Notes: a model not told the origin generated them from the letters alone. Positions 6,528 through 19,902 are shown, numbered from the stretch's first letter. The stretch is DNA of 55,876 bases from Actinomycetota bacterium (GCA_947449945.1 CANFTO010000002.1:1-55876); one strand, 5' to 3'. Program-made: numbers and translations.

Positions 6528-7157
6528 GTGTCTACTGCCGCTGACGATCCCGTTGAGCAAGCTGTGGACCGGGCTCTTAAGCCCCTACGCGATGATGCAG
6601 TGCGCGATGTCGAGGCAATCTTGGACGCAGCCCTGAAGGTTGCTGAACTCTCAAGCCCCGCGGCACCTCGGGTTGCCGACATCGTGGCTGAGGCTGGCAC
6701 CTCAAACCAAGCCTTCTATCGCTACTTCACTGGCAAAGACGATCTCATGCAGGCAGTGATGGCCCGTGGCCTTCGTCGCGTACATGCCTATCTTGAGCAC
6801 CGAATGTCAAAGGTTGATGAACCAACGAAAAAGATTGAACTGTGGATTCGTGGAATTTTGACCCAAGCCACCCACCAAACCGCCGCTCGACAAGGCGCTG
6901 CCGTCGCGGAAATTTTCGCAGTGAATAGCGGTGGCATCGATTCGAAGTCTCAGGAAGCAACTGTCGCTTTGCAAGATTTATTGATCGCCCCGCTCACTAC
7001 CCTGGGCAGCACCGACCCTGTCCGCGATGCCGCACTTATCCGCGAAGCGTCAATGGGAACAATGCGCAATCACATGAACGCCCACACCAGTCCATCCCAA
7101 GAAGACAGCGATCACCTCGTTGACTTTTGCCTGCGAGGAATCAACACCACTCAATGA
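6528..7157 (+). CDS. TetR/AcrR family transcriptional regulator
   Basis: GTG start. The N-terminal HTH reads VADIVAEAGTSNQAFYRYFTGKDDL, followed by an all-helical C-terminal domain. Confidence 0.8.
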   Translation: MSTAADDPVEQAVDRALKPLRDDAVRDVEAILDAALKVAELSSPAAPRVADIVAEAGTSNQAFYRYFTGKDDLMQAVMARGLRRVHAYLEHRMSKVDEPTKKIELWIRGILTQATHQTAARQGAAVAEIFAVNSGGIDSKSQEATVALQDLLIAPLTTLGSTDPVRDAALIREASMGTMRNHMNAHTSPSQEDSDHLVDFCLRGINTTQ

Positions 7158-7960
7158 CGAATTATGAATTAGACCGCAGTGTTGTGGTCGATGGAGCAAC
7201 TGTGCGCTACGCCGTTAATGGCCAGGGCACTCGTGATCTCTTACTTGTACATGGTGCAGGCGCGCATCAACTTTGGTTCTACCGGATGTTTGAAGCCTTG
7301 CAAAAGGATTGGCGCGTCATCACCGTTGATCTCACGGGCCACGGATTCAGTGACCATCGAGATCGCTACACAGTTGAAACCTGGGCCAATGAACTCGCTG
7401 AGATTCTTCGCACAGAAAGTTCTGAGCCTGCGCTCGTAGCCGGTCACAGCATGGGTTCACGTGTAGCTCTAGCCCTGACAGCAAACAACCCTGAACTTGT
7501 ACGTGAACTCATCATGATCGATGGGAATATTCGATCTCCTGAAGAAATTGCAATGTATTCAGACCGCAAGCCACTGCTCACTCCTAAGTACTATGCAACA
7601 AAAGAAGACGCACTTGCTCGCTTTCGCTTAGTTCCGGCCCAGTCGGAACCTGGCATGGACATACTCCTTCCCATTGCGGAATATTCAGTGGTCAAGCGCG
7701 ATCAAGGTTGGTCCTGGCGCCATGACTGGAGCACCATCACTGAGCCTTATGACGAATACATCAACTCGCGGGTGCCACTGATTAAGCAGCCAGTGACCTT
7801 TGTCTATGGAACCGATAGTCCTGTTTCAGGTAAAGATAAAGCTGACTACTTCGTTGAGATCGCGACAACTGATGTCGATGTGATTGCAATTGAAGGTGGC
7901 GGGCATCACCTCATGCTCGACCGGCCAGGCGAATGCCTCGCACTCTTTACGGGCAAATAA
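7154..7960 (+). CDS. alpha/beta-fold hydrolase
   Basis: The ATG at 7154 overlaps the TetR stop (ATGA). It has an HG oxyanion motif (LLLVHGAGAH), a nucleophile elbow (GHSMGS) and a C-terminal GGGHHLMLD. The ORF-track start at 7127 lies inside the TetR gene. Confidence 0.8.
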   Translation: MTNYELDRSVVVDGATVRYAVNGQGTRDLLLVHGAGAHQLWFYRMFEALQKDWRVITVDLTGHGFSDHRDRYTVETWANELAEILRTESSEPALVAGHSMGSRVALALTANNPELVRELIMIDGNIRSPEEIAMYSDRKPLLTPKYYATKEDALARFRLVPAQSEPGMDILLPIAEYSVVKRDQGWSWRHDWSTITEPYDEYINSRVPLIKQPVTFVYGTDSPVSGKDKADYFVEIATTDVDVIAIEGGGHHLMLDRPGECLALFTGK

Positions 7961-8915
7961 GTACTTTGCCTGTTGACTGACGAGTTGCAATAAATTCCAA
8001 CGCGTCTTTTGCCTCGTTAAGGCTAAAAACTTTGGAGATATGTGGCGACAGTCCGTCTTGGGTCATCGCATCGAGTTTCGCATCTCCTTGAGCGACCTCT
8101 TGAGGCAAATGCTCGGCAACTGTGCGAATCTCAAAGCCCTTGATGATTCCGCCTTTAAGCAATGGGAGATTTAGCGCAATCTTTGGAATCTCACCATCTG
8201 CGAACCCCACTACAACAAATCTGCCACCCCAGGCAATCGCCCGGAATGACTCTTCGGCGTACGATCCACCAACAGGGTCGATGATCAGATCAGCACCTGA
8301 GCCAGTGATCGCCTTGATGCGGTCTTTGAGATTTTCTGTCGTGTAATTGATCCCAGCGACTGCACCTAACTCCGCACAGACACGCAAACGCTCATCACCT
8401 GAAGCAACAGCGATCACCTTTGCGCCCAAACGCGTTGCAATGTCCACGCTGGCCGTACCCACGCCACCCGCAGCACCCAGGACGACTACCCAGTCCCCTG
8501 CCTTTAACTCTCCAATGGTGACGAGGGCGTGATACGCGGTGCGGTAGGTAACACTAAAAGCTGCGGCTTGATGCAAGCTAAGCCCCGTTGGTATCGGTTT
8601 GAGTGAAACCGCTTTGACAGCAATTTGCTCAGCAAAACATCCAACAAAGGATCCACCCATCACTAAATCACCAGGTTTTACATTGGTCACCTTGGACCCA
8701 ACCGAAAGCACAACACCCGCAAACTCACTGCCAGGAATGAACGGTGTTGGAATTGAGACTTGATAAAGATTTTCGATAATCAAAAGATCAGGGAAATTGA
8801 TTCCAGCGGCACGGATAGCAACTACGGCTTCATCTGGGCCTGCTACCGGGTCGGGTAACTCCTTGAGCACCAAACTTGACGGAGGACCGTATTGCTCACA
8901 AACCAAAGCGCGCAT
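7947..8915 (-). CDS. NADPH:quinone oxidoreductase / zinc-type MDR alcohol dehydrogenase superfamily
   Basis: MRALVCEQYGPP..VAIRAAGINFPD matches the family N-terminus and VLGAAGGVGTA is a Rossmann motif. This is the QOR-like family. Confidence 0.8.
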   Translation of the reverse strand: MRALVCEQYGPPSSLVLKELPDPVAGPDEAVVAIRAAGINFPDLLIIENLYQVSIPTPFIPGSEFAGVVLSVGSKVTNVKPGDLVMGGSFVGCFAEQIAVKAVSLKPIPTGLSLHQAAAFSVTYRTAYHALVTIGELKAGDWVVVLGAAGGVGTASVDIATRLGAKVIAVASGDERLRVCAELGAVAGINYTTENLKDRIKAITGSGADLIIDPVGGSYAEESFRAIAWGGRFVVVGFADGEIPKIALNLPLLKGGIIKGFEIRTVAEHLPQEVAQGDAKLDAMTQDGLSPHISKVFSLNEAKDALEFIATRQSTGKVLICP

Positions 8916-8943: not shown

Positions 8944-8974
8944 GCGGGTGGAATGTTTGAAACATTCCACCCGC
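8944..8974 (-). terminator. intrinsic terminator after the kinase-SDR-ACAD operon
   Basis: Perfect 14-bp stem (GCGGGTGGAATGTT / AACATTCCACCCGC) with a 3-nt loop. On the minus strand it is followed by CTCTTGTTTTC. Confidence 0.55.
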
Positions 8975-9005: not shown

Positions 9006-10310
9006 CTAGTCTTCAGGAACTGTCTGAGTGAAGACTTCTCCGAGAAGTTCAAGTTCGGCCTCGGCTTTGAGATTTGGAATCAATTCCGAAGGCCACACGC
9101 TGTCGGTTCCCTTGTACTGACGTAGCAACTGACGAGCAACGGTCACCTGGTGCACTTCGGTTGGTCCATCTGCCAAACCCAGCACAATGCCTGAGTTCAA
9201 GAATCCCATGAGTGGCAATTCATGCGAAGTACCAATGGCTCCGTGAAGATGCACTGCGCGAATACCAATTTCGGTCATCACTCGTGAGGTCTGCACCTTG
9301 ATCGCTGCAATGTCCATGCGGACCTTCTTGTAATCATTGAGCTTGTCGATCTTCCAAGCGCAGTGAAGAACAAGCAATCGGAAAGACTGCAACTCGATGT
9401 ACGTGTCAGCAATCATCTGCTGCACTGATTCCTTTTCCGCAAGCAATGTTCCCTTGGTGTAACGGGACAGTGCGCGCTCGGCCATCATGTCGAGTGCCTT
9501 TTGGCAGTTGCCTACGGTGCGCATTGCATGGTGGACGCGGCCACCACCCAGGCGAGTCTGCGCGACAGCAAATGCTTGTCCAACGCCACCAAGGATTGCT
9601 GACTGTGGAACGCGAACATTTTCATATTTGATCAGTGCTTCAGATACATCTTCTGGGCCCTCGCCAGCCATGCCGAAGTTGTACTGAATGTTGATACCTG
9701 GGGTTTCTGCAGGAACCACAAACATGGTCATGCGACTCACCACAGGAGCATCTGGATCAGTGACAGCCATTACGATGAAGAACTTGGCCCAGCGTGCATT
9801 TGATGACCACACCTTGCGGCCGTTGATCACCCAGTCATCCCCATCTTTCACTGCACGGGTGGTAAATACTCCGGGATCAGCGCCACCTTGTGGTTCGGTC
9901 ATTGAGAAGCAAGAAACGATGTCACCCTCAAGAAGTGGCTTGAGGTACTGCGCCTTTTGCTCATCAGTTCCGTAGTGAGCAAGAATCTCGGCGTTGCCTG
10001 TGTCTGGTGCCTGGGTACCAAAGATACGTGGTGCCCAACGTGATGTTCCAAGAATTTCGTTCAGCAACGCGAGTTTCAACTGGCCGTAACCCTGACCGCC
10101 AAGGTCTGGTCCAAGGTGGCAAGCCCAGAGCTTCTTATCGCGTACTTCCTGCTTCAATGGATTGATGATTGCAGCTTGCTGCGGTGTCATATCCTTGTAA
10201 ATATCATGTGGCCAAAGTAGGTCAACCTTCTTGATCTTGGTGTTGACGAACTCTTTGGTCCAGTCAAGTAGCTCTTGGAAGTCGGAATCGACCTCGAAAT
10301 CAATTGCCAT
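9006..10310 (-). CDS. acyl-CoA dehydrogenase family protein, ACAD10/11 / LvaC-like
   Basis: FSMTEPQGGADPG and WVINGRKVWSS match the ACAD middle domain. The C-terminus reads LADGPTEVH where classical ACADs have YEGT. It is the last gene of an operon with an APH-type kinase and an SDR. Confidence 0.8.
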   Translation of the reverse strand: MAIDFEVDSDFQELLDWTKEFVNTKIKKVDLLWPHDIYKDMTPQQAAIINPLKQEVRDKKLWACHLGPDLGGQGYGQLKLALLNEILGTSRWAPRIFGTQAPDTGNAEILAHYGTDEQKAQYLKPLLEGDIVSCFSMTEPQGGADPGVFTTRAVKDGDDWVINGRKVWSSNARWAKFFIVMAVTDPDAPVVSRMTMFVVPAETPGINIQYNFGMAGEGPEDVSEALIKYENVRVPQSAILGGVGQAFAVAQTRLGGGRVHHAMRTVGNCQKALDMMAERALSRYTKGTLLAEKESVQQMIADTYIELQSFRLLVLHCAWKIDKLNDYKKVRMDIAAIKVQTSRVMTEIGIRAVHLHGAIGTSHELPLMGFLNSGIVLGLADGPTEVHQVTVARQLLRQYKGTDSVWPSELIPNLKAEAELELLGEVFTQTVPED

Positions 10311-10355
10311 GTCATTCTCCTTAGGTGATGTGTAAAGTCTTTGTGGTTACGCGAT

Positions 10356-11123
10356 TTAGTACATGCCACCATCAACGCGAATAATCGCGCAGGATGTGTA
10401 GGTCGAGGCATCAGATGCGAGATAAATTGCAGCTCCAACAATTTCGTGAGGCTCACCAATGCGCTTGAGCGAAGTAGTGCTTTGCAATCCTGCAGTCATT
10501 GATGGGACATCCCACGCTTTAGAAATGTCAGTCATCATCGTTCCTGACATCAAGGTGTTCACCCGAACCGCTGGCCCGAAAGCTTTTGCAAAACCTTCGG
10601 TCATGGTGTTCAAAGCATACTTCGCACCAGCGTAAGGAATGATTGTTGGTGAAGGGCGAATTGATCCTGATGAACTCACATTGATGATCGATCCGCGGCC
10701 TGCGGCAGCCATACGTTCGCCCATGAGTGCAGTGAGGTGATACGGGCCTTTGAAGTTGAGATTCATCACGCTGTCGAACATCTGCTCAGTGACGTCTGAA
10801 TTCTTTTCGTAAATAGGTGACATGCCCGCGTTGTTTATCAATACATCAACACGACCAAAGCGCTCGTACACCGCATCAACAAACGGCTCAATCGCATCCC
10901 ATCGACCAACATGCAACCCATAAGCCATTGTTTCAACGCCAAATTTTTCAGCGATGTCATTGGCTACGGTTTCGCAGTTTTCCAGTTTGCGAGAAGCAAT
11001 CACCACATGTGCACCTGCTTGCGCGCATCCATAGGCCATTTCCTTGCCCAGCCCGCGGCTTCCACCCGTGATGACAATGACTTTGTCTTTGAGGCTGAAC
11101 AAATTGTCAAGGTAGCTGCTCAC
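10356..11123 (-). CDS. SDR family oxidoreductase
   Basis: VIVITGGSRGLG is a TGxxxGxG cofactor motif, NNAG is present, and YAGAKYAL supplies the catalytic Y-x3-K. Confidence 0.85.
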   Translation of the reverse strand: MSSYLDNLFSLKDKVIVITGGSRGLGKEMAYGCAQAGAHVVIASRKLENCETVANDIAEKFGVETMAYGLHVGRWDAIEPFVDAVYERFGRVDVLINNAGMSPIYEKNSDVTEQMFDSVMNLNFKGPYHLTALMGERMAAAGRGSIINVSSSGSIRPSPTIIPYAGAKYALNTMTEGFAKAFGPAVRVNTLMSGTMMTDISKAWDVPSMTAGLQSTTSLKRIGEPHEIVGAAIYLASDASTYTSCAIIRVDGGMY

Positions 11124-12172
11124 TTCACACCGTCCGGCATTGTTGCTGCGAGCTCAGCTGCCTTGCTCATGAGTTCGAGTACGAGTGGCCCAAATGAGGC
11201 AAGCGATGGGTTATCGATGTTGTTCTTCACGATTCGTGCATATGACATCTCAAGAACAATCGCGAGCTTCCAACGTGCCAGCACGAGGTAGTAAGGGAAG
11301 TCTTGGGTGCTGCGCCCGCTGATCTTTTCGTAGTGAGCCAAGAGATCTTCAAGCGGTGGCATGCCCTCCACATCGAGGTAGCGCATGTATTTGGAATCCG
11401 CTGCATCTGGAGCCATCGAGCCCAATGCCCATGCGAGATCCAGGAGTGGGTCACCGATCGTGGTCATTTCCCAGTCCACAACAGCGGCTAACTTGGTCGG
11501 CACCTCATTGGTGAACATGATGTTGGCGAATTGGTAATCGCCATGCATGATGCCCGGCTCCCATGAACGTGGCTTGTGCTTGTCGAGCCAGGCTGTTGCT
11601 TCTTCCAGGCCTGGCAACTCGCGGAACTTGTAGCCATCGAGGAAGGAAATCCAGCGACTGACCTGGCGATCATGGAAGTTGTCTGGGCGACCAAAACCTT
11701 CAAGGCCTTGCGCCTTCCAATCAACCTTGGCCAGCAATGCGCAGCCTTCAACTAACGCATACGCAAGTGCCGGTCGCAGACTTAAATCTGACTTGTACGG
11801 CTCTGGCCAACCATCGCCACCTGCCGGAGACCAACCGATGATCTGCTTCATCAAATAAAACGGGATACCCAAAACGTCAGCGTCTTCGCACCCAACGACG
11901 AGCTCACCATGCGGAACATCTGTTCCCTTAAGTGAGGCCAAGAAGGTCATCTCGCGCTTGATGCCATCGGCACGACCAGAATTGCGCGGTGGAATGCGCA
12001 TCACCAGGCGCTCACCACCACGATCGACGAGGTACAACTCGTTTTGGGAACCGCCTGAAATCTTGGTCAGTTCCGGAGTCTGCCCGGCGCCTGGTCGGTT
12101 AACTGAGTCCATCCAGACCGTCAGGCGCTGCAGTTCTTCTGGGGTAAATGGGTGCTTGGTATCGGTAGCCAT
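11120..12172 (-). CDS. phosphotransferase (APH/ChoK-like kinase) of the ACAD10/11 / LvaA type
   Basis: Nucleotide-loop-like string SGGSQNELYLV, catalytic loop HGDYQFANIMF and VVDWEMTTIGDPLLDLA. There is a 4-nt overlap with the SDR gene. Confidence 0.8.
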   Translation of the reverse strand: MATDTKHPFTPEELQRLTVWMDSVNRPGAGQTPELTKISGGSQNELYLVDRGGERLVMRIPPRNSGRADGIKREMTFLASLKGTDVPHGELVVGCEDADVLGIPFYLMKQIIGWSPAGGDGWPEPYKSDLSLRPALAYALVEGCALLAKVDWKAQGLEGFGRPDNFHDRQVSRWISFLDGYKFRELPGLEEATAWLDKHKPRSWEPGIMHGDYQFANIMFTNEVPTKLAAVVDWEMTTIGDPLLDLAWALGSMAPDAADSKYMRYLDVEGMPPLEDLLAHYEKISGRSTQDFPYYLVLARWKLAIVLEMSYARIVKNNIDNPSLASFGPLVLELMSKAAELAATMPDGVK

Positions 12173-12288
12173 GGGATGAGAATAGCGTTCTTATTTCCAA
12201 GAATCTTGTTCTCTGGGAAATATCTTAAGAAATTTTCACACTTCGGGCCCACGGAAGGTTCAGCCTTTGACCCACTAGTTTTACTGGC

Positions 12289-18148: not shown

Positions 18149-18895
18149 TTACTCATCCTCCACCGAAGTATCGGACGAATGCGATCGTTTATTTCTTAGC
18201 TCTTCAACTGTTGGAGCAGTTCCACCAAAACGAGGAGGCAGCCACCAAAGATCGTCCGTGGTATTTCTAGGATATCTTTCTATCGTCTGATCCAAAAGTG
18301 CACCCATCACAGACTTCAAATGATCGGTCTCTGTATGGACATCTGCACGCTTTTCCACATCGATAGGTTTACCAATCGTGACGCCGATCGTTTTCCCCCG
18401 GGAAAGATCTTTATGTCCATAACCAAGAATCCGCTGACCACCAAATACCGCCATCGGAATGATTGGCACCTGTGCCATCGCCGCCATGCGCACGGCTCCA
18501 CTCTTGAATGAAATGAGTTCAAAGGAACGACTCATCGTGCCTTCTGGGAAAACCCCGAGGAGCTCGCCATCCTTGAGCGCCCGAACCCCTTGGCGAAATG
18601 CATCAGAACCAGCATCGCGATTGACGGAGATATGCCCCATCGATCGCATCAGCGGACCTGCGACCGGATGCTTAAAAATTCCGTCCTTGGCCATAAATCG
18701 CACACGCCGATGTCCCACACGATCTGCGGGCAAACCAGCAAAGGCGTAATCCAAGAAACTTATGTGATTGATCGCCAGCACAGCGCCGCCCGTGACTGGG
18801 ATGTTTTCTTGGCCGATGATGTCGAATTTCAAACCAAGCGCGCCAAAAAGCCCCTTGACGGTGAAAACAAGCGGGCGATACACAAGGTCTGCCAT
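18149..18895 (-). CDS. 1-acyl-sn-glycerol-3-phosphate acyltransferase (PlsC family)
   Basis: HX4D motif NHISFLDY and the VFPEGT block. Confidence 0.8.
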   Translation of the reverse strand: MADLVYRPLVFTVKGLFGALGLKFDIIGQENIPVTGGAVLAINHISFLDYAFAGLPADRVGHRRVRFMAKDGIFKHPVAGPLMRSMGHISVNRDAGSDAFRQGVRALKDGELLGVFPEGTMSRSFELISFKSGAVRMAAMAQVPIIPMAVFGGQRILGYGHKDLSRGKTIGVTIGKPIDVEKRADVHTETDHLKSVMGALLDQTIERYPRNTTDDLWWLPPRFGGTAPTVEELRNKRSHSSDTSVEDE

Positions 18896-19008
18896 GCGAG
18901 AAGGCTAACGAAGCGGCAAGATGAGGCCATTGGTCCCCACCTGCGGGGCCAAGTTTCCCTCGTGAAGTCGATTTCGCGCTGGCAAGATGCATCATGGAGG
19001 TCATCACA

Positions 19009-19902
19009 ATGTTCCACAACCGAGTCGTCATTGGATTCGACGGAAGCACCTCGGCAGAAAGTGCCGCACGATGGGCTGCTCGTGAGGCTCAATCACGCGG
19101 GCTTGGACTGACGGTCATTCACGCCACAATCCCACCGCTGAGTAGCAGTGGGGCCTGGGGCCCTGGCGCACCGATATCTATGGATGCCATTGATGAGATT
19201 CGCGATAGTGCACAGACCTTCCTTGACACCTTCGCTTCAACCTTGCCTGCGAGCGACATACAAACGCTGGTTCAAGTTGGTTCACCAACCGGAATCTTGC
19301 TCGCAGCATCAGAATCAGCGGCACTGATTGTGGTGGGTTCACGAGGTCACGGTGGCTTCAAGGAACTCCTCCTTGGCTCGGTGAGTCAACAGTTAGTGAC
19401 GCATGCTGATTGCCCCGTCGTTGTTATTCGCGAAGAGCGCACCGTGGATGCTACGGCCGTGGTCGTAGGTGTTGATGGAAGTGCGGCATCACATGCCGCC
19501 GTTGATTTCGCTTTCGATTACGCAAGTCGCCATCATCTTTCTGTGCTTGCCATTCATGCGTGGGATGTTCCATCCTTCGACCTCATCGTGATGCCAAATA
19601 CTCCAGTACCAATTGAAATTGGCGATATCGCAGACACAGAAGTGCGCTTGGCAGCTGAACTCCTTGCTGGCTACGAAGCGCGATACCCAGATGTCACCTT
19701 GGAAACTCGTGTGATTCGCACGACCCCCGCAAATGCCATCTTGAGTGTTGAGTCAGAAGCCTCAGTCATCGTGATGGGTACCCGTGGCCATGGCGCCGTC
19801 ATAGGTTCAATCATCGGTTCTGTGAGCCATACCATCTTGCATCGAGCCAGTGTTCCCGTCATCGTGGTGACCGAAGAAGCCCACGACGACGACGCTGCAT
19901 AA
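19009..19902 (+). CDS. universal stress protein, tandem USP domains
   Basis: Two repeats of VVIGFDGS / VVGVDGS ... GSRGHGG / GTRGHGA ... PVVVI / PVIVV. The ATG at 19009 lies 8 nt after GGAGG, whereas the ORF-track ATG at 18994 overlaps that SD. Confidence 0.85.
   Translation: MFHNRVVIGFDGSTSAESAARWAAREAQSRGLGLTVIHATIPPLSSSGAWGPGAPISMDAIDEIRDSAQTFLDTFASTLPASDIQTLVQVGSPTGILLAASESAALIVVGSRGHGGFKELLLGSVSQQLVTHADCPVVVIREERTVDATAVVVGVDGSAASHAAVDFAFDYASRHHLSVLAIHAWDVPSFDLIVMPNTPVPIEIGDIADTEVRLAAELLAGYEARYPDVTLETRVIRTTPANAILSVESEASVIVMGTRGHGAVIGSIIGSVSHTILHRASVPVIVVTEEAHDDDAA

What the first reader, a model, noticed from the sequence alone, without database searches (positions are those of the whole stretch)
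9006..12172. Kinase-SDR-ACAD operon resembling the Lva / ACAD10-11 logic for 4-oxo and 4-hydroxy acids
Three co-directional genes end in a strong terminator (8944-8974). The first two overlap by 4 nt and the third follows after 45 nt. (1) The kinase is APH-fold (SGGSQNELYLV, HGDYQFANIMF, DWEMTTIGDP), the pattern of the kinase domain fused to mammalian ACAD10/ACAD11 and of LvaA. (2) The second gene is an SDR, in the LvaD position. (3) The ACAD has a C-terminus reading LADGPTEVH instead of YEGT, which I associate with the ACAD10/11 / LvaC branch. In Pseudomonas putida Lva and mammalian ACAD10/11, a 4-hydroxyacyl-CoA is phosphorylated and the atypical ACAD eliminates phosphate to give an enoyl-CoA. 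The SDR would first reduce a 4-oxoacyl-CoA. No LvaB-like small subunit or CoA ligase lies in this operon, so the substrate (levulinate, gamma-hydroxy acids or lactone-derived acids) and its activation step are open.
Basis: partly seen in the sequence, partly recalled or inferred. Interest (0 to 1): 0.6.

Follow-up and report, generated by a model that had tools for sequence, protein, structure and literature searches.

The report
Split ACAD10/11-type 4-hydroxyacyl-CoA module
A freshwater actinobacterium carries a conserved cluster (kinase, reductase, unusual flavoenzyme, plus a second reductase and a repressor) that most likely removes a 4-oxo or 4-hydroxy group from fatty acyl-CoAs so they can be burnt; the chemistry is already known from Pseudomonas, Burkholderia and mammals, but this enzyme branch is untested.

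Summary
Three minus-strand genes (kinase 12172-11120, SDR 11123-10356, ACAD 10310-9006) show the stated 4-nt overlap, 45-nt gap, motifs and a strong hairpin at 8974-8944.

The ACAD belongs to the ACAD10/11-LvaC clade:
- It keeps the catalytic Asp (D381) and the phosphate-binding R253/H261/R264.
- Its best sequence and fold matches are 4hr3 and ACAD11.

The kinase is ACAD10/11-type, but has Gln where tested relatives have Arg or Lys.

This is not an lva operon:
- There is no LvaB (DUF6285) and no CoA ligase.
- Identity to a Pseudomonas lvaABCDE-like operon is only 24-34%.

The ACAD sits in a third, untested branch. It is sister to the ACAD10/11 type, with the Lva type basal. This branch occurs in many Actinobacteria and some Proteobacteria.

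The functional unit is probably larger than the three genes. It likely includes an MDR quinone-oxidoreductase-like gene (8915-7947), a TetR gene (6528-7157), perhaps a hydrolase (7127-7960), and an operator-like palindrome upstream of the kinase. These partners recur in other genera.

[quoted passage not shown] The substrate is unknown.

This scan has noted the same kind of module on other DNA many times (e.g. e1-3380940). Verdict: a correct reading and a new variant of a known kind, of moderate interest.

The parts
11120..12172 (-). APH-fold kinase, ACAD10/11-type (350 aa). Key residues: R59 (beta3 Arg), E74, H210/D212/N217, D233-W234-E235, R169. Gln214 stands where tested relatives have Arg or Lys.
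   Evidence: Pfam APH 2e-34. Best PDB matches are 9o56 (134 bits), 3dxp (113) and the ACAD11 kinase domain (86). Invariant residues come from alignment A2. APH(3') resistance model: 31 bits against a cut-off of 205.
10356..11123 (-). Classical SDR (255 aa, GTG start, 4-nt overlap with the kinase stop). Motifs: TGGSRGLG, IASRK after beta2 (suggests NADP(H), by inference), NNAG, Ser in VSSSGS, YAGAK.
   Evidence: Pfam adh_short 2e-46. No NCBIfam equivalog reaches its cut-off. 59-85% identical to the SDR in the same position in K-S-A triads of other genera. 34% identical to an LvaD-like SDR.
9006..10310 (-). ACAD10/11-LvaC-clade acyl-CoA dehydrogenase-fold flavoenzyme (434 aa). D381 replaces the catalytic Glu. 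R253/R258/H261/R264 form the helix motif RLGGGRVHHAMR. A C-terminal tail of about 35 aa is present.
   Evidence: PDB by sequence: 4hr3 241 bits, ACAD11 209-210 bits, best canonical ACAD 148 bits. AF2 model has pLDDT 91. Top fold matches are 4hr3, 2wbi and 8v3u (TM 0.89-0.92). Invariant residues in A1. Trees.
8944..8974 (-). Strong hairpin (14-bp stem, 3-nt loop, T-rich tail) between the ACAD stop and the QOR start. Likely a terminator or attenuator.
   Evidence: z = -4.6.
7947..8915 (-). MDR-family NADPH:quinone-oxidoreductase-like reductase (322 aa). A likely functional partner acting as an ene-reductase (inferred).
   Evidence: Pfam ADH_N/ADH_zinc_N; NCBIfam PIG3-family 229 bits, below the cut-off of 297. 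Best PDB match is 4eye. Homologues at 42-81% lie next to the module in L044, L184, L185, L186, L187 and L048.
7127..7960 (+). Alpha/beta-hydrolase (277 aa), convergent with the QOR gene (14-nt tail overlap). A possible partner such as an esterase, lactonase or thioesterase; the link is weak.
   Evidence: Pfam Abhydrolase_1/6. A 56% homologue sits in the same place in L044, and a 32% homologue lies next to the triad in L008.
6528..7157 (+). TetR-family regulator (209 aa), the probable repressor of the module.
   Evidence: Pfam TetR_N. Homologues at 37-71% lie beside the module in L008, L009, L044, L045, L046, L186 and L190.
12178..12213 (.). Two operator-like half-degenerate palindromes (12178-12192 and 12199-12213, starts 21 nt apart) of the type GAGAAT-N3-ATTCTC, directly upstream of the kinase start codon.
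   Evidence: two of the four 2-mismatch matches in the 55.9-kb window fall in this 116-nt spacer. Exact palindromes lie 21-91 nt upstream of the kinase gene in L008, L009, L015, L016 and L017, against about 0.013 expected in the 212 kb scanned.

Best explanation
This is a TetR-controlled auxiliary beta-oxidation module of the ACAD10/11-Lva kind, split into separate genes.

Inferred route:
1. The NADP(H)-type SDR reduces a 4-oxoacyl-CoA to a 4-hydroxyacyl-CoA.
2. The APH-fold kinase phosphorylates the 4-hydroxyl with ATP.
3. The ACAD-fold flavoenzyme abstracts the C2 proton with Asp381 and holds the 4-phosphate with Arg253/His261/Arg264. It eliminates phosphate in a net redox-neutral, FAD-dependent reaction and yields a 2-enoyl-CoA for ordinary beta-oxidation.

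The adjacent MDR reductase probably feeds the route by saturating a 2,3 double bond in 4-oxo- or 4-hydroxy-2-enoyl compounds.

Because no ligase is present, the substrates probably arrive already as CoA esters. They could be chain-shortened hydroxy or oxo fatty acids, or be activated by a general ligase.

Shown here: family membership, conserved catalytic residues, fold, conserved synteny and a conserved operator. Inferred: every catalytic step, the SDR and QOR roles, and the substrate.
For: ACAD:
- The nearest solved proteins are 4hr3 and ACAD11, well above canonical ACADs.
- All residues shown by mutagenesis to matter in ACAD11 (R626, R631, H634, R637, D753; PMC12440821) align to R253, R258, H261, R264, D381.
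- These positions are invariant or at least 90% conserved across all three subclades.
- The AF2 model (pLDDT 91) superposes on ACAD11 8v3u at TM 0.92 and 2.3 A.

Tree rooted on canonical ACADs:
- The Asp-Gly-Pro clade is monophyletic (100).
- The Lva type is basal.
- The window type is sister to the ACAD10/11 type (98).
- The untested branch is therefore bracketed by tested ones.

Kinase:
- The best hits are ACAD10-type kinases.
- R59, E74, H210, D212, N217, D233 and E235 are invariant.
- R169 aligns with the CoA-contacting R176.

Synteny:
- K-S-A recurs with tight spacing in a close relative, Nocardioides, Nocardia and metagenome contigs.
- The ACAD lies within about 1.5 kb of the kinase in 14 of 29 phylum-sample loci.
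- QOR and TetR homologues recur, as does the operator.

Neighbours elsewhere are acyl-CoA genes: ECH, thiolase, CoA-transferase and AMP-binding.
Against: - No member of this branch has been assayed.
- The kinase has Gln214 at the catalytic-loop position where C. thermarum K216 is essential. ACAD10/11-type and LvaA-like kinases have Arg there.
- The SDR is no closer to an LvaD-like SDR than to generic SDRs, so its substrate is a guess.
- There is no CoA ligase, CoA-transferase or LvaB in the cluster.
- Kinases of this family also phosphorylate 1-O-alkylglycerols in vitro (bioRxiv 10.1101/2025.09.10.675409).
- The trees are quick searches with SH-aLRT support only. They lack the true KT2440, mouse and B. 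pseudomallei sequences, which no tool supplied.
- The hairpin separates the QOR gene from the triad in this genome.
Confidence: 0.62

Rival explanations
1. The kinase-ACAD chemistry is as above, but the SDR has another role. It could be a 3-hydroxyacyl-CoA dehydrogenase acting after hydration of the enoyl product. Or it could invert 4-hydroxyacyl-CoA stereochemistry through the 4-oxo intermediate to supply the isomer the kinase prefers.
For: The SDR has no specific similarity to an LvaD-like SDR. Its best PDB matches are generic carbonyl, sugar and FabG reductases. The ACAD10 kinase strongly prefers R-4-hydroxyacyl-CoA (PMC11342911). Many loci of this branch (A-K-QOR: L184, L185, L187) work without this SDR.
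Against: The SRK signature after beta2 suggests NADP(H), which fits a reductive role better. The SDR is translationally coupled to the kinase and co-evolves with it, as expected for the step that makes the kinase substrate.
Confidence: 0.2
2. The kinase is a lipid or alcohol kinase of the ACAD10 type, such as a 1-O-alkylglycerol or monoacylglycerol kinase. Its link to the ACAD is then not a two-step pathway on one acyl-CoA.
For: Several prokaryotic ACAD10-type kinase domains phosphorylate chimyl alcohol in vitro, some stimulated by acetyl-CoA. The best PDB match, 9o56, is probably the C. thermarum kinase crystallised in that preprint; this identification is inferred from chain length and motifs, not from the entry.
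Against: The kinase is tightly and repeatedly paired with an ACAD that keeps the whole phosphate-binding set. The neighbours are acyl-CoA genes. The K216 equivalent that is essential for that activity is Gln here.
Confidence: 0.06
3. The ACAD is an ordinary alpha,beta-dehydrogenase of the FadE2 type, and the kinase is unrelated, for example an antibiotic or small-molecule resistance kinase.
For: Public annotations call these genes 'acyl-CoA dehydrogenase' and 'aminoglycoside phosphotransferase'. An older claim of ACAD11 activity on long-chain acyl-CoAs is mentioned in PMC12440821.
Against: ACAD10/11 showed no activity on standard acyl-CoAs in a head-to-head assay. Asp replaces Glu, and the R/H/R helix is absent from conventional ACADs. 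The APH(3') model scores 31 bits against a cut-off of 205.
Confidence: 0.05

Closest known systems
Mammalian ACAD10 / ACAD11 (mouse ACAD11, PDB 8v3u/8v3v; human 2wbi; PMC12440821, PMC11342911)
   Same: The same two catalytic units: an APH-fold 4-hydroxyacyl-CoA kinase and an ACAD-fold phosphate eliminase. The catalytic Asp, the R/H/R phosphate-binding helix, the beta3 Arg, HxD..N and DWE are all conserved. The fold match has TM 0.92.
   Different: The units are separate genes here, not fused. The ACAD is only 35-38% identical and sits in a sister clade (RLGGGR[IV]HHAMR / GLADGPTE against RLGPGRIHHCMR / R[LI]ADGPDE). It carries an extra C-terminal tail. The kinase is about 27% identical and has Gln214 in place of Arg. 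An SDR, an MDR reductase and a TetR accompany the pair, and there is no HAD domain.
Burkholderia pseudomallei split kinase/ACAD pair (Q63VL0/Q63VL1), shown to replace the ACAD10 domains in vitro (PMC11342911)
   Same: A bacterial pair of adjacent separate genes with the same predicted chemistry.
   Different: That paper describes the pair as more similar to the ACAD10 domains than the P. putida proteins are. I therefore infer it is of the ACAD10/11 type. A Burkholderiaceae locus of that type (Caballeronia L049) is 30/35/39% identical to the window's kinase/SDR/ACAD. The B. pseudomallei sequences themselves were not available to compare.
Pseudomonas putida levulinate operon lvaABCDE (Rand et al. 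2017, as described in PMC6692424)
   Same: The same overall logic: SDR makes the 4-hydroxyacyl-CoA, the kinase phosphorylates it, and the ACAD-family enzyme removes phosphate.
   Different: There is no LvaB (DUF6285), no LvaE ligase and no LvaR-type regulator. The gene order is K-S-A, not A-B-C-D-E. Identity to a Pseudomonas lvaABCDE-like operon (L182) is 25% (kinase), 34% (SDR) and 29% (ACAD). The ACAD falls in a different subclade.
Mycobacterium abscessus putative acyl-CoA dehydrogenase, PDB 4hr3 (structure only)
   Same: It is the best sequence match (241 bits) and fold match, and carries the same Asp-Gly-Pro and R/H/R motifs.
   Different: The PDB title assigns no function. It is 415 aa long. 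The alignment shows the ACAD10/11-type motif (RLGPGRVHHAMR / RLADGPDEVH).

Membership tests
ACAD10/11-LvaC clade of phosphate-eliminating ACAD-fold flavoenzymes | ACAD fold (N, middle and C-terminal domains) | tested here: met
   All three Pfam domains are present. The AF2 model has pLDDT 91, and its top PDB fold matches are 4hr3, 2wbi and 8v3u.
ACAD10/11-LvaC clade of phosphate-eliminating ACAD-fold flavoenzymes | Catalytic Asp in place of the canonical Glu (ACAD11 D753) | tested here: met
   D381 in LADGPTEVH aligns with D753. It is invariant in the 24-sequence alignment A1.
ACAD10/11-LvaC clade of phosphate-eliminating ACAD-fold flavoenzymes | Phosphate-binding helix residues R626, H634 and R637 (plus R631) | tested here: met
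   They align to R253, H261, R264 and R258. R253, R258 and R264 are invariant and H261 is at least 90% conserved.
ACAD10/11-LvaC clade of phosphate-eliminating ACAD-fold flavoenzymes | Phylogenetic placement inside the clade and apart from canonical ACADs | tested here: met
   In the rooted quick tree the clade has 100 support and the window type is sister to the ACAD10/11 type at 98. PDB scores are 241 and 210 bits against 148 for the best canonical ACAD.
ACAD10/11-LvaC clade of phosphate-eliminating ACAD-fold flavoenzymes | [quoted passage not shown] | not testable with these tools
   This needs an enzyme assay.
ACAD10/11-type 4-hydroxyacyl-CoA kinase (APH fold) | APH fold with the beta3 Arg, alphaC Glu, HxD....N catalytic loop and DWE metal-binding motif | tested here: met
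   R59, E74, H210, D212, N217, D233 and E235 are invariant and W234 is at least 90% conserved in A2. They align to 9o56, 3dxp and ACAD11.
ACAD10/11-type 4-hydroxyacyl-CoA kinase (APH fold) | Basic residue two positions after the catalytic Asp (K216 in the C. thermarum kinase, essential there; Arg in ACAD10/11-type and LvaA-like kinases) | tested here: not met
   The window has Gln214 (HGDYQFAN). The whole window-type kinase branch has Gln at this position.
ACAD10/11-type 4-hydroxyacyl-CoA kinase (APH fold) | CoA-contacting Arg (ACAD11 R176) | tested here: met
   R169 in HDRQVSRW aligns with R176. The second contact, R86, could not be mapped unambiguously because of numbering.
ACAD10/11-type 4-hydroxyacyl-CoA kinase (APH fold) | ATP-dependent phosphorylation of 4-hydroxyacyl-CoA but not of the free acid | not testable with these tools
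   This needs an enzyme assay.
Pseudomonas lva (levulinate) operon | Small LvaB partner (12 kDa; DUF6285 in the lva-like operons L182 and L183) | tested here: not met
   No PF19802 match in the cluster or in the whole genome, which is 88% complete.
Pseudomonas lva (levulinate) operon | LvaE acyl-CoA synthetase in the operon | tested here: not met
   No AMP-binding gene lies between 6.5 and 17 kb of the window.
Pseudomonas lva (levulinate) operon | Orthology of the kinase, ACAD and SDR to LvaA, LvaC and LvaD | tested here: not met
   Against the Pseudomonas lvaABCDE-like locus L182: kinase 25% (54 bits), ACAD 29% (185 bits), SDR 34% (106-117 bits, the generic SDR level). The ACAD is in a separate subclade. 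The KT2440 proteins themselves were not available.

The most novel reading that the evidence does not exclude
The window-type kinase/ACAD branch, with its own SDR, MDR ene-reductase, TetR and GAGAAT-N3-ATTCTC operator, may not be a simple copy of the 4-hydroxy-fatty-acid route. It may be a distinct regulon for reactive 4-oxo-2-enoyl or 4-hydroxy-2-enoyl compounds. Candidate sources are lipid-peroxidation products of the 4-oxo/4-hydroxy-alkenal series, opened gamma-lactones or furanones, and ring-cleavage products. Two successive reductions (C=C by the QOR, C=O by the SDR) would come before phosphorylation and elimination. The Gln-for-Arg change in the kinase would reflect a different acceptor.
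Probability: 0.25. Interest if true: 0.55.

Novelty: new variant of a known kind. Interest (0 to 1): 0.38.

Why it matters
The phosphorylate-then-eliminate route for 4-hydroxy acids was worked out only recently: lva in 2017 and ACAD10/11 in 2024-25. This cluster represents a third, widespread and untested branch of that enzyme pair. It occurs in many Actinobacteria, on Rhodococcus and Streptomyces catabolic megaplasmids, and in some Proteobacteria. It carries its own reductase partners and a recognisable repressor and operator. Assaying one member would fix the annotation of thousands of genes now labelled 'aminoglycoside phosphotransferase' and 'acyl-CoA dehydrogenase'. The TetR inducer would reveal the natural substrate. 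For freshwater plankton, it points to use or detoxification of oxidised lipids or lactone-derived acids by one genus only.

Tried and rejected
- The true P. putida KT2440 Lva, mouse ACAD10/11 and B. pseudomallei sequences could not be obtained from any tool. PMC5705400 is not held.
- As a substitute I reached Pseudomonas genomes through a 16S primer scan. The first P. putida genomes examined have only an unlinked core ACAD10/11-type ACAD beside a LysR gene, and no lva operon. lvaABCDE-like loci were then found in other genomes of the genus.
- Cluster names for representative ACADs gave no functional names.
- A literature search for any assay of the actinobacterial triad found nothing.
- A search for PDB code 9o56 in papers found only an unrelated hit. 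Its identity as the C. thermarum kinase is inferred from length and motifs.
- An operator copy near the TetR gene's own start was looked for and not found.
- The SDR's PDB and NCBIfam matches give no substrate clue.
- Rejected: an aminoglycoside-resistance reading and membership of the lva operon.
Full report
**1. Observation**

The three minus-strand ORFs are exactly as described:
- kinase 12172-11120 (350 aa)
- SDR 11123-10356 (255 aa, GTG start)
- ACAD 10310-9006 (434 aa)

The kinase stop and SDR start overlap by 4 nt, and the SDR-ACAD gap is 45 nt. Pfam confirms APH, adh_short and the three ACAD domains. All quoted motifs are present.

The hairpin at 8974-8944 has a 14-bp stem. It folds at about -31 to -35 kcal/mol with z = -4.6.

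The genome is a 1.9-Mb, 88%-complete assembly of a freshwater actinobacterium. The nearest public kinase is labelled Candidatus Nanopelagicales.

**2. The ACAD**

By sequence, the best solved relatives are M. abscessus 4hr3 (241 bits) and mouse and human ACAD11 (210 and 209 bits). The best canonical ACAD scores 148 bits.

Mutagenesis of ACAD11 showed that D753 is the catalytic base. It also showed that R626, H634 and R637, which conventional ACADs lack, hold the 4-phosphate, and that R631 positions the substrate (PMC12440821).

In the HMMER alignment these residues are D381, R253, H261, R264 and R258 of the window protein. In a 24-sequence alignment spanning all subclades, R253, R258, R264, D381, G382, E385 and H387 are invariant and H261 is at least 90% conserved.

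An AlphaFold2 model (pLDDT 91, pTM 0.87) matches 4hr3, human ACAD11 2wbi and mouse ACAD11 8v3u best, with TM 0.89-0.92 normalised to the target. Residues of about 400-434 form a lower-confidence C-terminal tail that ACAD11 lacks.

**3. The kinase**

The best solved relatives are:
- 9o56 (134 bits). [quoted passage not shown]
- 3dxp (113 bits).
- The ACAD11 kinase domain (86 bits).

The beta3 Arg (R59), alphaC Glu (E74), H210/D212/N217 and D233-W234-E235 are conserved across window-type, LvaA-like and fused ACAD10/11-type kinases. R169 aligns with the CoA-contacting R176.

There is one departure. Two residues after the catalytic Asp, the window branch has Gln (HGDYQF[AI]N). At that position C. 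thermarum has the essential K216, and the other two kinase types have Arg. From memory only, choline kinases also carry Gln there, so this need not abolish catalysis.

Resistance-kinase models fail: APH(3') scores 31 bits against a cut-off of 205.

**4. Comparison with Lva**

No tool supplied the KT2440 proteins. I therefore located lva-type operons in the Pseudomonas genus.

Locus L182 has this gene order:
- APH (352 aa)
- DUF6285 (118 aa)
- ACAD (402 aa)
- SDR (255 aa)
- AMP-binding ligase

This is the lvaABCDE order and sizes described in PMC6692424. L183 resembles the P. citronellolis variant with a histidine phosphatase.

| Window protein | Against lva-like L182/L183 | Against ACAD10/11-type proteins | Against window-type proteins |
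|---|---|---|---|
| Kinase | 24-25% | 25-29% | 51% Rhodococcus, 36% Massilia |
| ACAD | 29-32% | 36-38% | 59-67% |
| SDR | 34% (106-117 bits) | 35% / 164 bits (Caballeronia) | 68% Nocardioides, 49% Massilia |

The ACAD10/11-type set comprises nematode ACAD10 P0215, fused P0181, the Pseudomonas core ACAD and Caballeronia. The window-type set comprises Nocardioides, Rhodococcus pLP4 and Massilia.

The SDR score against LvaD-like proteins is no better than against generic PDB SDRs or the genome's own paralogues.

No DUF6285 gene exists in this genome.

The module is therefore not a member of the lva operon family, although it shares its logic.

**5. Three subclades**

Motif signatures separate three groups:

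| Subclade | Helix motif | Catalytic motif |
|---|---|---|
| ACAD10/11 type | RLGPGRIHHCMR | R[LI]ADGPDEVH |
| Lva type | RLAPARLTHCMR | RIYDGPSEVH |
| Window type (425-440 aa) | RLGGGR[IV]HHAMR | [GA]L[AV]DGPTEVH |

A 63-row tree separates the window type from the rest at 95.

A 40-row tree rooted on three canonical ACADs of this genome gives the following:
- The whole Asp-Gly-Pro clade has 100 support.
- Lva-type rows lie at the base.
- A clade at 98 joins the ACAD10/11 type (99) with a group (96) that contains the window type.

The untested branch is thus bracketed by branches with shown phosphate-eliminating activity. This supports the same chemistry by inference. Both trees are quick searches with SH-aLRT support only.

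**6. Synteny and extent of the unit**

K-S-A with near-identical spacing recurs in several places:
- a close relative (L044; kinase/SDR/ACAD 79/85/84% identical, with the whole neighbourhood syntenic)
- Nocardioides (L008)
- Nocardia (L009)
- two metagenome contigs (L045, L046)
- three genomes of one actinobacterial family (L015-L017)

In a 301-genome phylum sample, 39 genomes have a kinase at E <= 1e-50. In 14 of the 29 fetched loci, a clade ACAD lies within about 1.5 kb.

Other orders exist: K-A-S (Massilia, Rhodococcus pLP4), A-K, A-K-QOR (L184, L185, L187) and A-K-ECH-QOR (L186).

The window's MDR quinone-oxidoreductase-like gene (8915-7947) has homologues at 42-81% beside the module in six other loci. 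Its TetR (6528-7157) has homologues at 37-71% beside the module in seven.

An exact palindrome GAGAAT-N3-ATTCTC lies 21-91 nt upstream of the kinase gene in L008, L009, L015, L016 and L017. About 0.013 exact matches are expected in the 212 kb scanned. The window has two 2-mismatch copies, at 12178-12192 and 12199-12213, just before the kinase ATG. These are two of only four such matches in the whole window.

I therefore read the unit as TetR, (hydrolase), QOR, ACAD, SDR and kinase. The hairpin would act as an internal terminator or attenuator.

Flanking genes elsewhere are typical acyl-CoA metabolism: enoyl-CoA hydratase, thiolase, family-III CoA-transferase, Amidohydro_2 and AMP-binding ligase.

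**7. Distribution**

- In the window's own genus, 11 of 12 other genomes carry the ACAD (at least 69% identity), and five carry two copies. The one without a match is 65% complete.
- None of the 12 genomes searched from other genera of the family has it at E <= 1e-100.
- Window-type ACADs also occur on Rhodococcus and Streptomyces megaplasmids and in Massilia, Variovorax, sphingomonads and Caulobacter.
- They occur in 14 of 301 sampled Pseudomonas genomes, whereas 293 of 301 have a match at E <= 1e-50, almost all at ~37% identity (ACAD10/11-type where checked).

The tallies include unpublished genomes G001, G088, G174, G404 and G456. G456 is one of the 14 Pseudomonas genomes, and L037 and L040 are kinase-only loci. 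No conclusion rests on these genomes alone.

**8. Mechanism**

The most likely sequence is as follows.
1. The SDR reduces a 4-oxoacyl-CoA. Its SRK signature after beta2 suggests NADP(H).
2. The kinase makes the 4-phosphoacyl-CoA.
3. The ACAD-fold enzyme deprotonates C2 with Asp381 and uses FAD transiently. It expels phosphate to give 2-enoyl-CoA, as shown for ACAD10/11.
4. The QOR may saturate 4-oxo- or 4-hydroxy-2-enoyl precursors.

Because no ligase is present, the module probably serves CoA esters that arise during beta-oxidation of oxo or hydroxy fatty acids, or esters made by a general ligase.

All catalytic steps and the substrate are inferred.

Rival readings:
- a different SDR role
- an alkylglycerol-type kinase activity
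- a conventional dehydrogenase

**9. Novelty**

Split bacterial pairs are already validated: P. putida Lva, and B. pseudomallei in PMC11342911. This scan has flagged such modules at least 65 times, including a near-identical one, e1-3380940.

What is new is modest:
- an untested sister branch
- its own SDR, QOR and TetR-operator set
- a Gln in the kinase catalytic loop

No paper in the library describes this branch.

Noticed in passing
L008, L009, L015, L016, L017 (21-91 nt upstream of the kinase gene); window 12178-12213: The exact palindrome GAGAAT-N3-ATTCTC is conserved upstream of the module across genera. It is probably the operator of the co-located TetR. The window has two degenerate copies whose starts are 21 nt apart.
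   Followed up: partly
L175:8463-9692 (P. putida PSE7): 293 of 301 sampled Pseudomonas genomes have a match at E <= 1e-50, almost all at ~37% identity. In PSE7 it is a stand-alone ACAD10/11-type ACAD (54% identical to a nematode ACAD10) next to a divergent LysR gene. It lies about 0.4 Mb from the only ACAD10-type kinase. A pair need not be linked.
   Followed up: partly
L182:5320-6528 compared with PMC11342911: That paper gives LvaC as 56-62% identical to the ACAD10/11 ACAD domains. The ACAD of the lvaABCDE-like Pseudomonas operon is only 34-38% identical to a nematode ACAD10, while the Pseudomonas core ACAD is 54%. The paper's UniProt codes for LvaA and LvaE are also far apart. The protein compared there may not be the operon's LvaC. 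This could not be checked without the KT2440 sequences.
   Followed up: no
L049:4442-5116 (Caballeronia pNK84); L183:5111-5824: A histidine-phosphatase-family gene travels with ACAD10/11-type and lva-type kinase/ACAD loci. P. citronellolis shows the same (PMC6692424), and the arrangement recalls the HAD phosphatase domain fused in ACAD10. None is present in the window cluster.
   Followed up: no
own genus, (e.g. G609:C173:10297-11595 and 18584-19879): Five genomes of the window's genus carry a second paralogue of the ACAD (69-73% identical). In one case it lies only 7 kb from the first. Within the family, the module was found only in this genus among the genomes searched.
   Followed up: no
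L008:2771-5160, L046:1115-4514, L048:3501-4724: An Amidohydro_2-family hydrolase lies within a few kb of the module in three unrelated loci, and a family-III CoA-transferase accompanies it in two of them. Amidohydro_2 includes lactonases. This would suit a route from lactone to hydroxy acid to CoA ester.
   Followed up: no
G000:C158:1601-2455 (L002): The genome has a second, distant APH-fold kinase (25% identical to the window kinase, 428-aa frame). Its role is unknown.
   Followed up: no
L009/L010:4214-5647: In Nocardia sp. NBC_00565, an IS605-family TnpB gene sits between the TetR gene and the K-S-A triad. It separates the regulator from its presumed operator.
   Followed up: no
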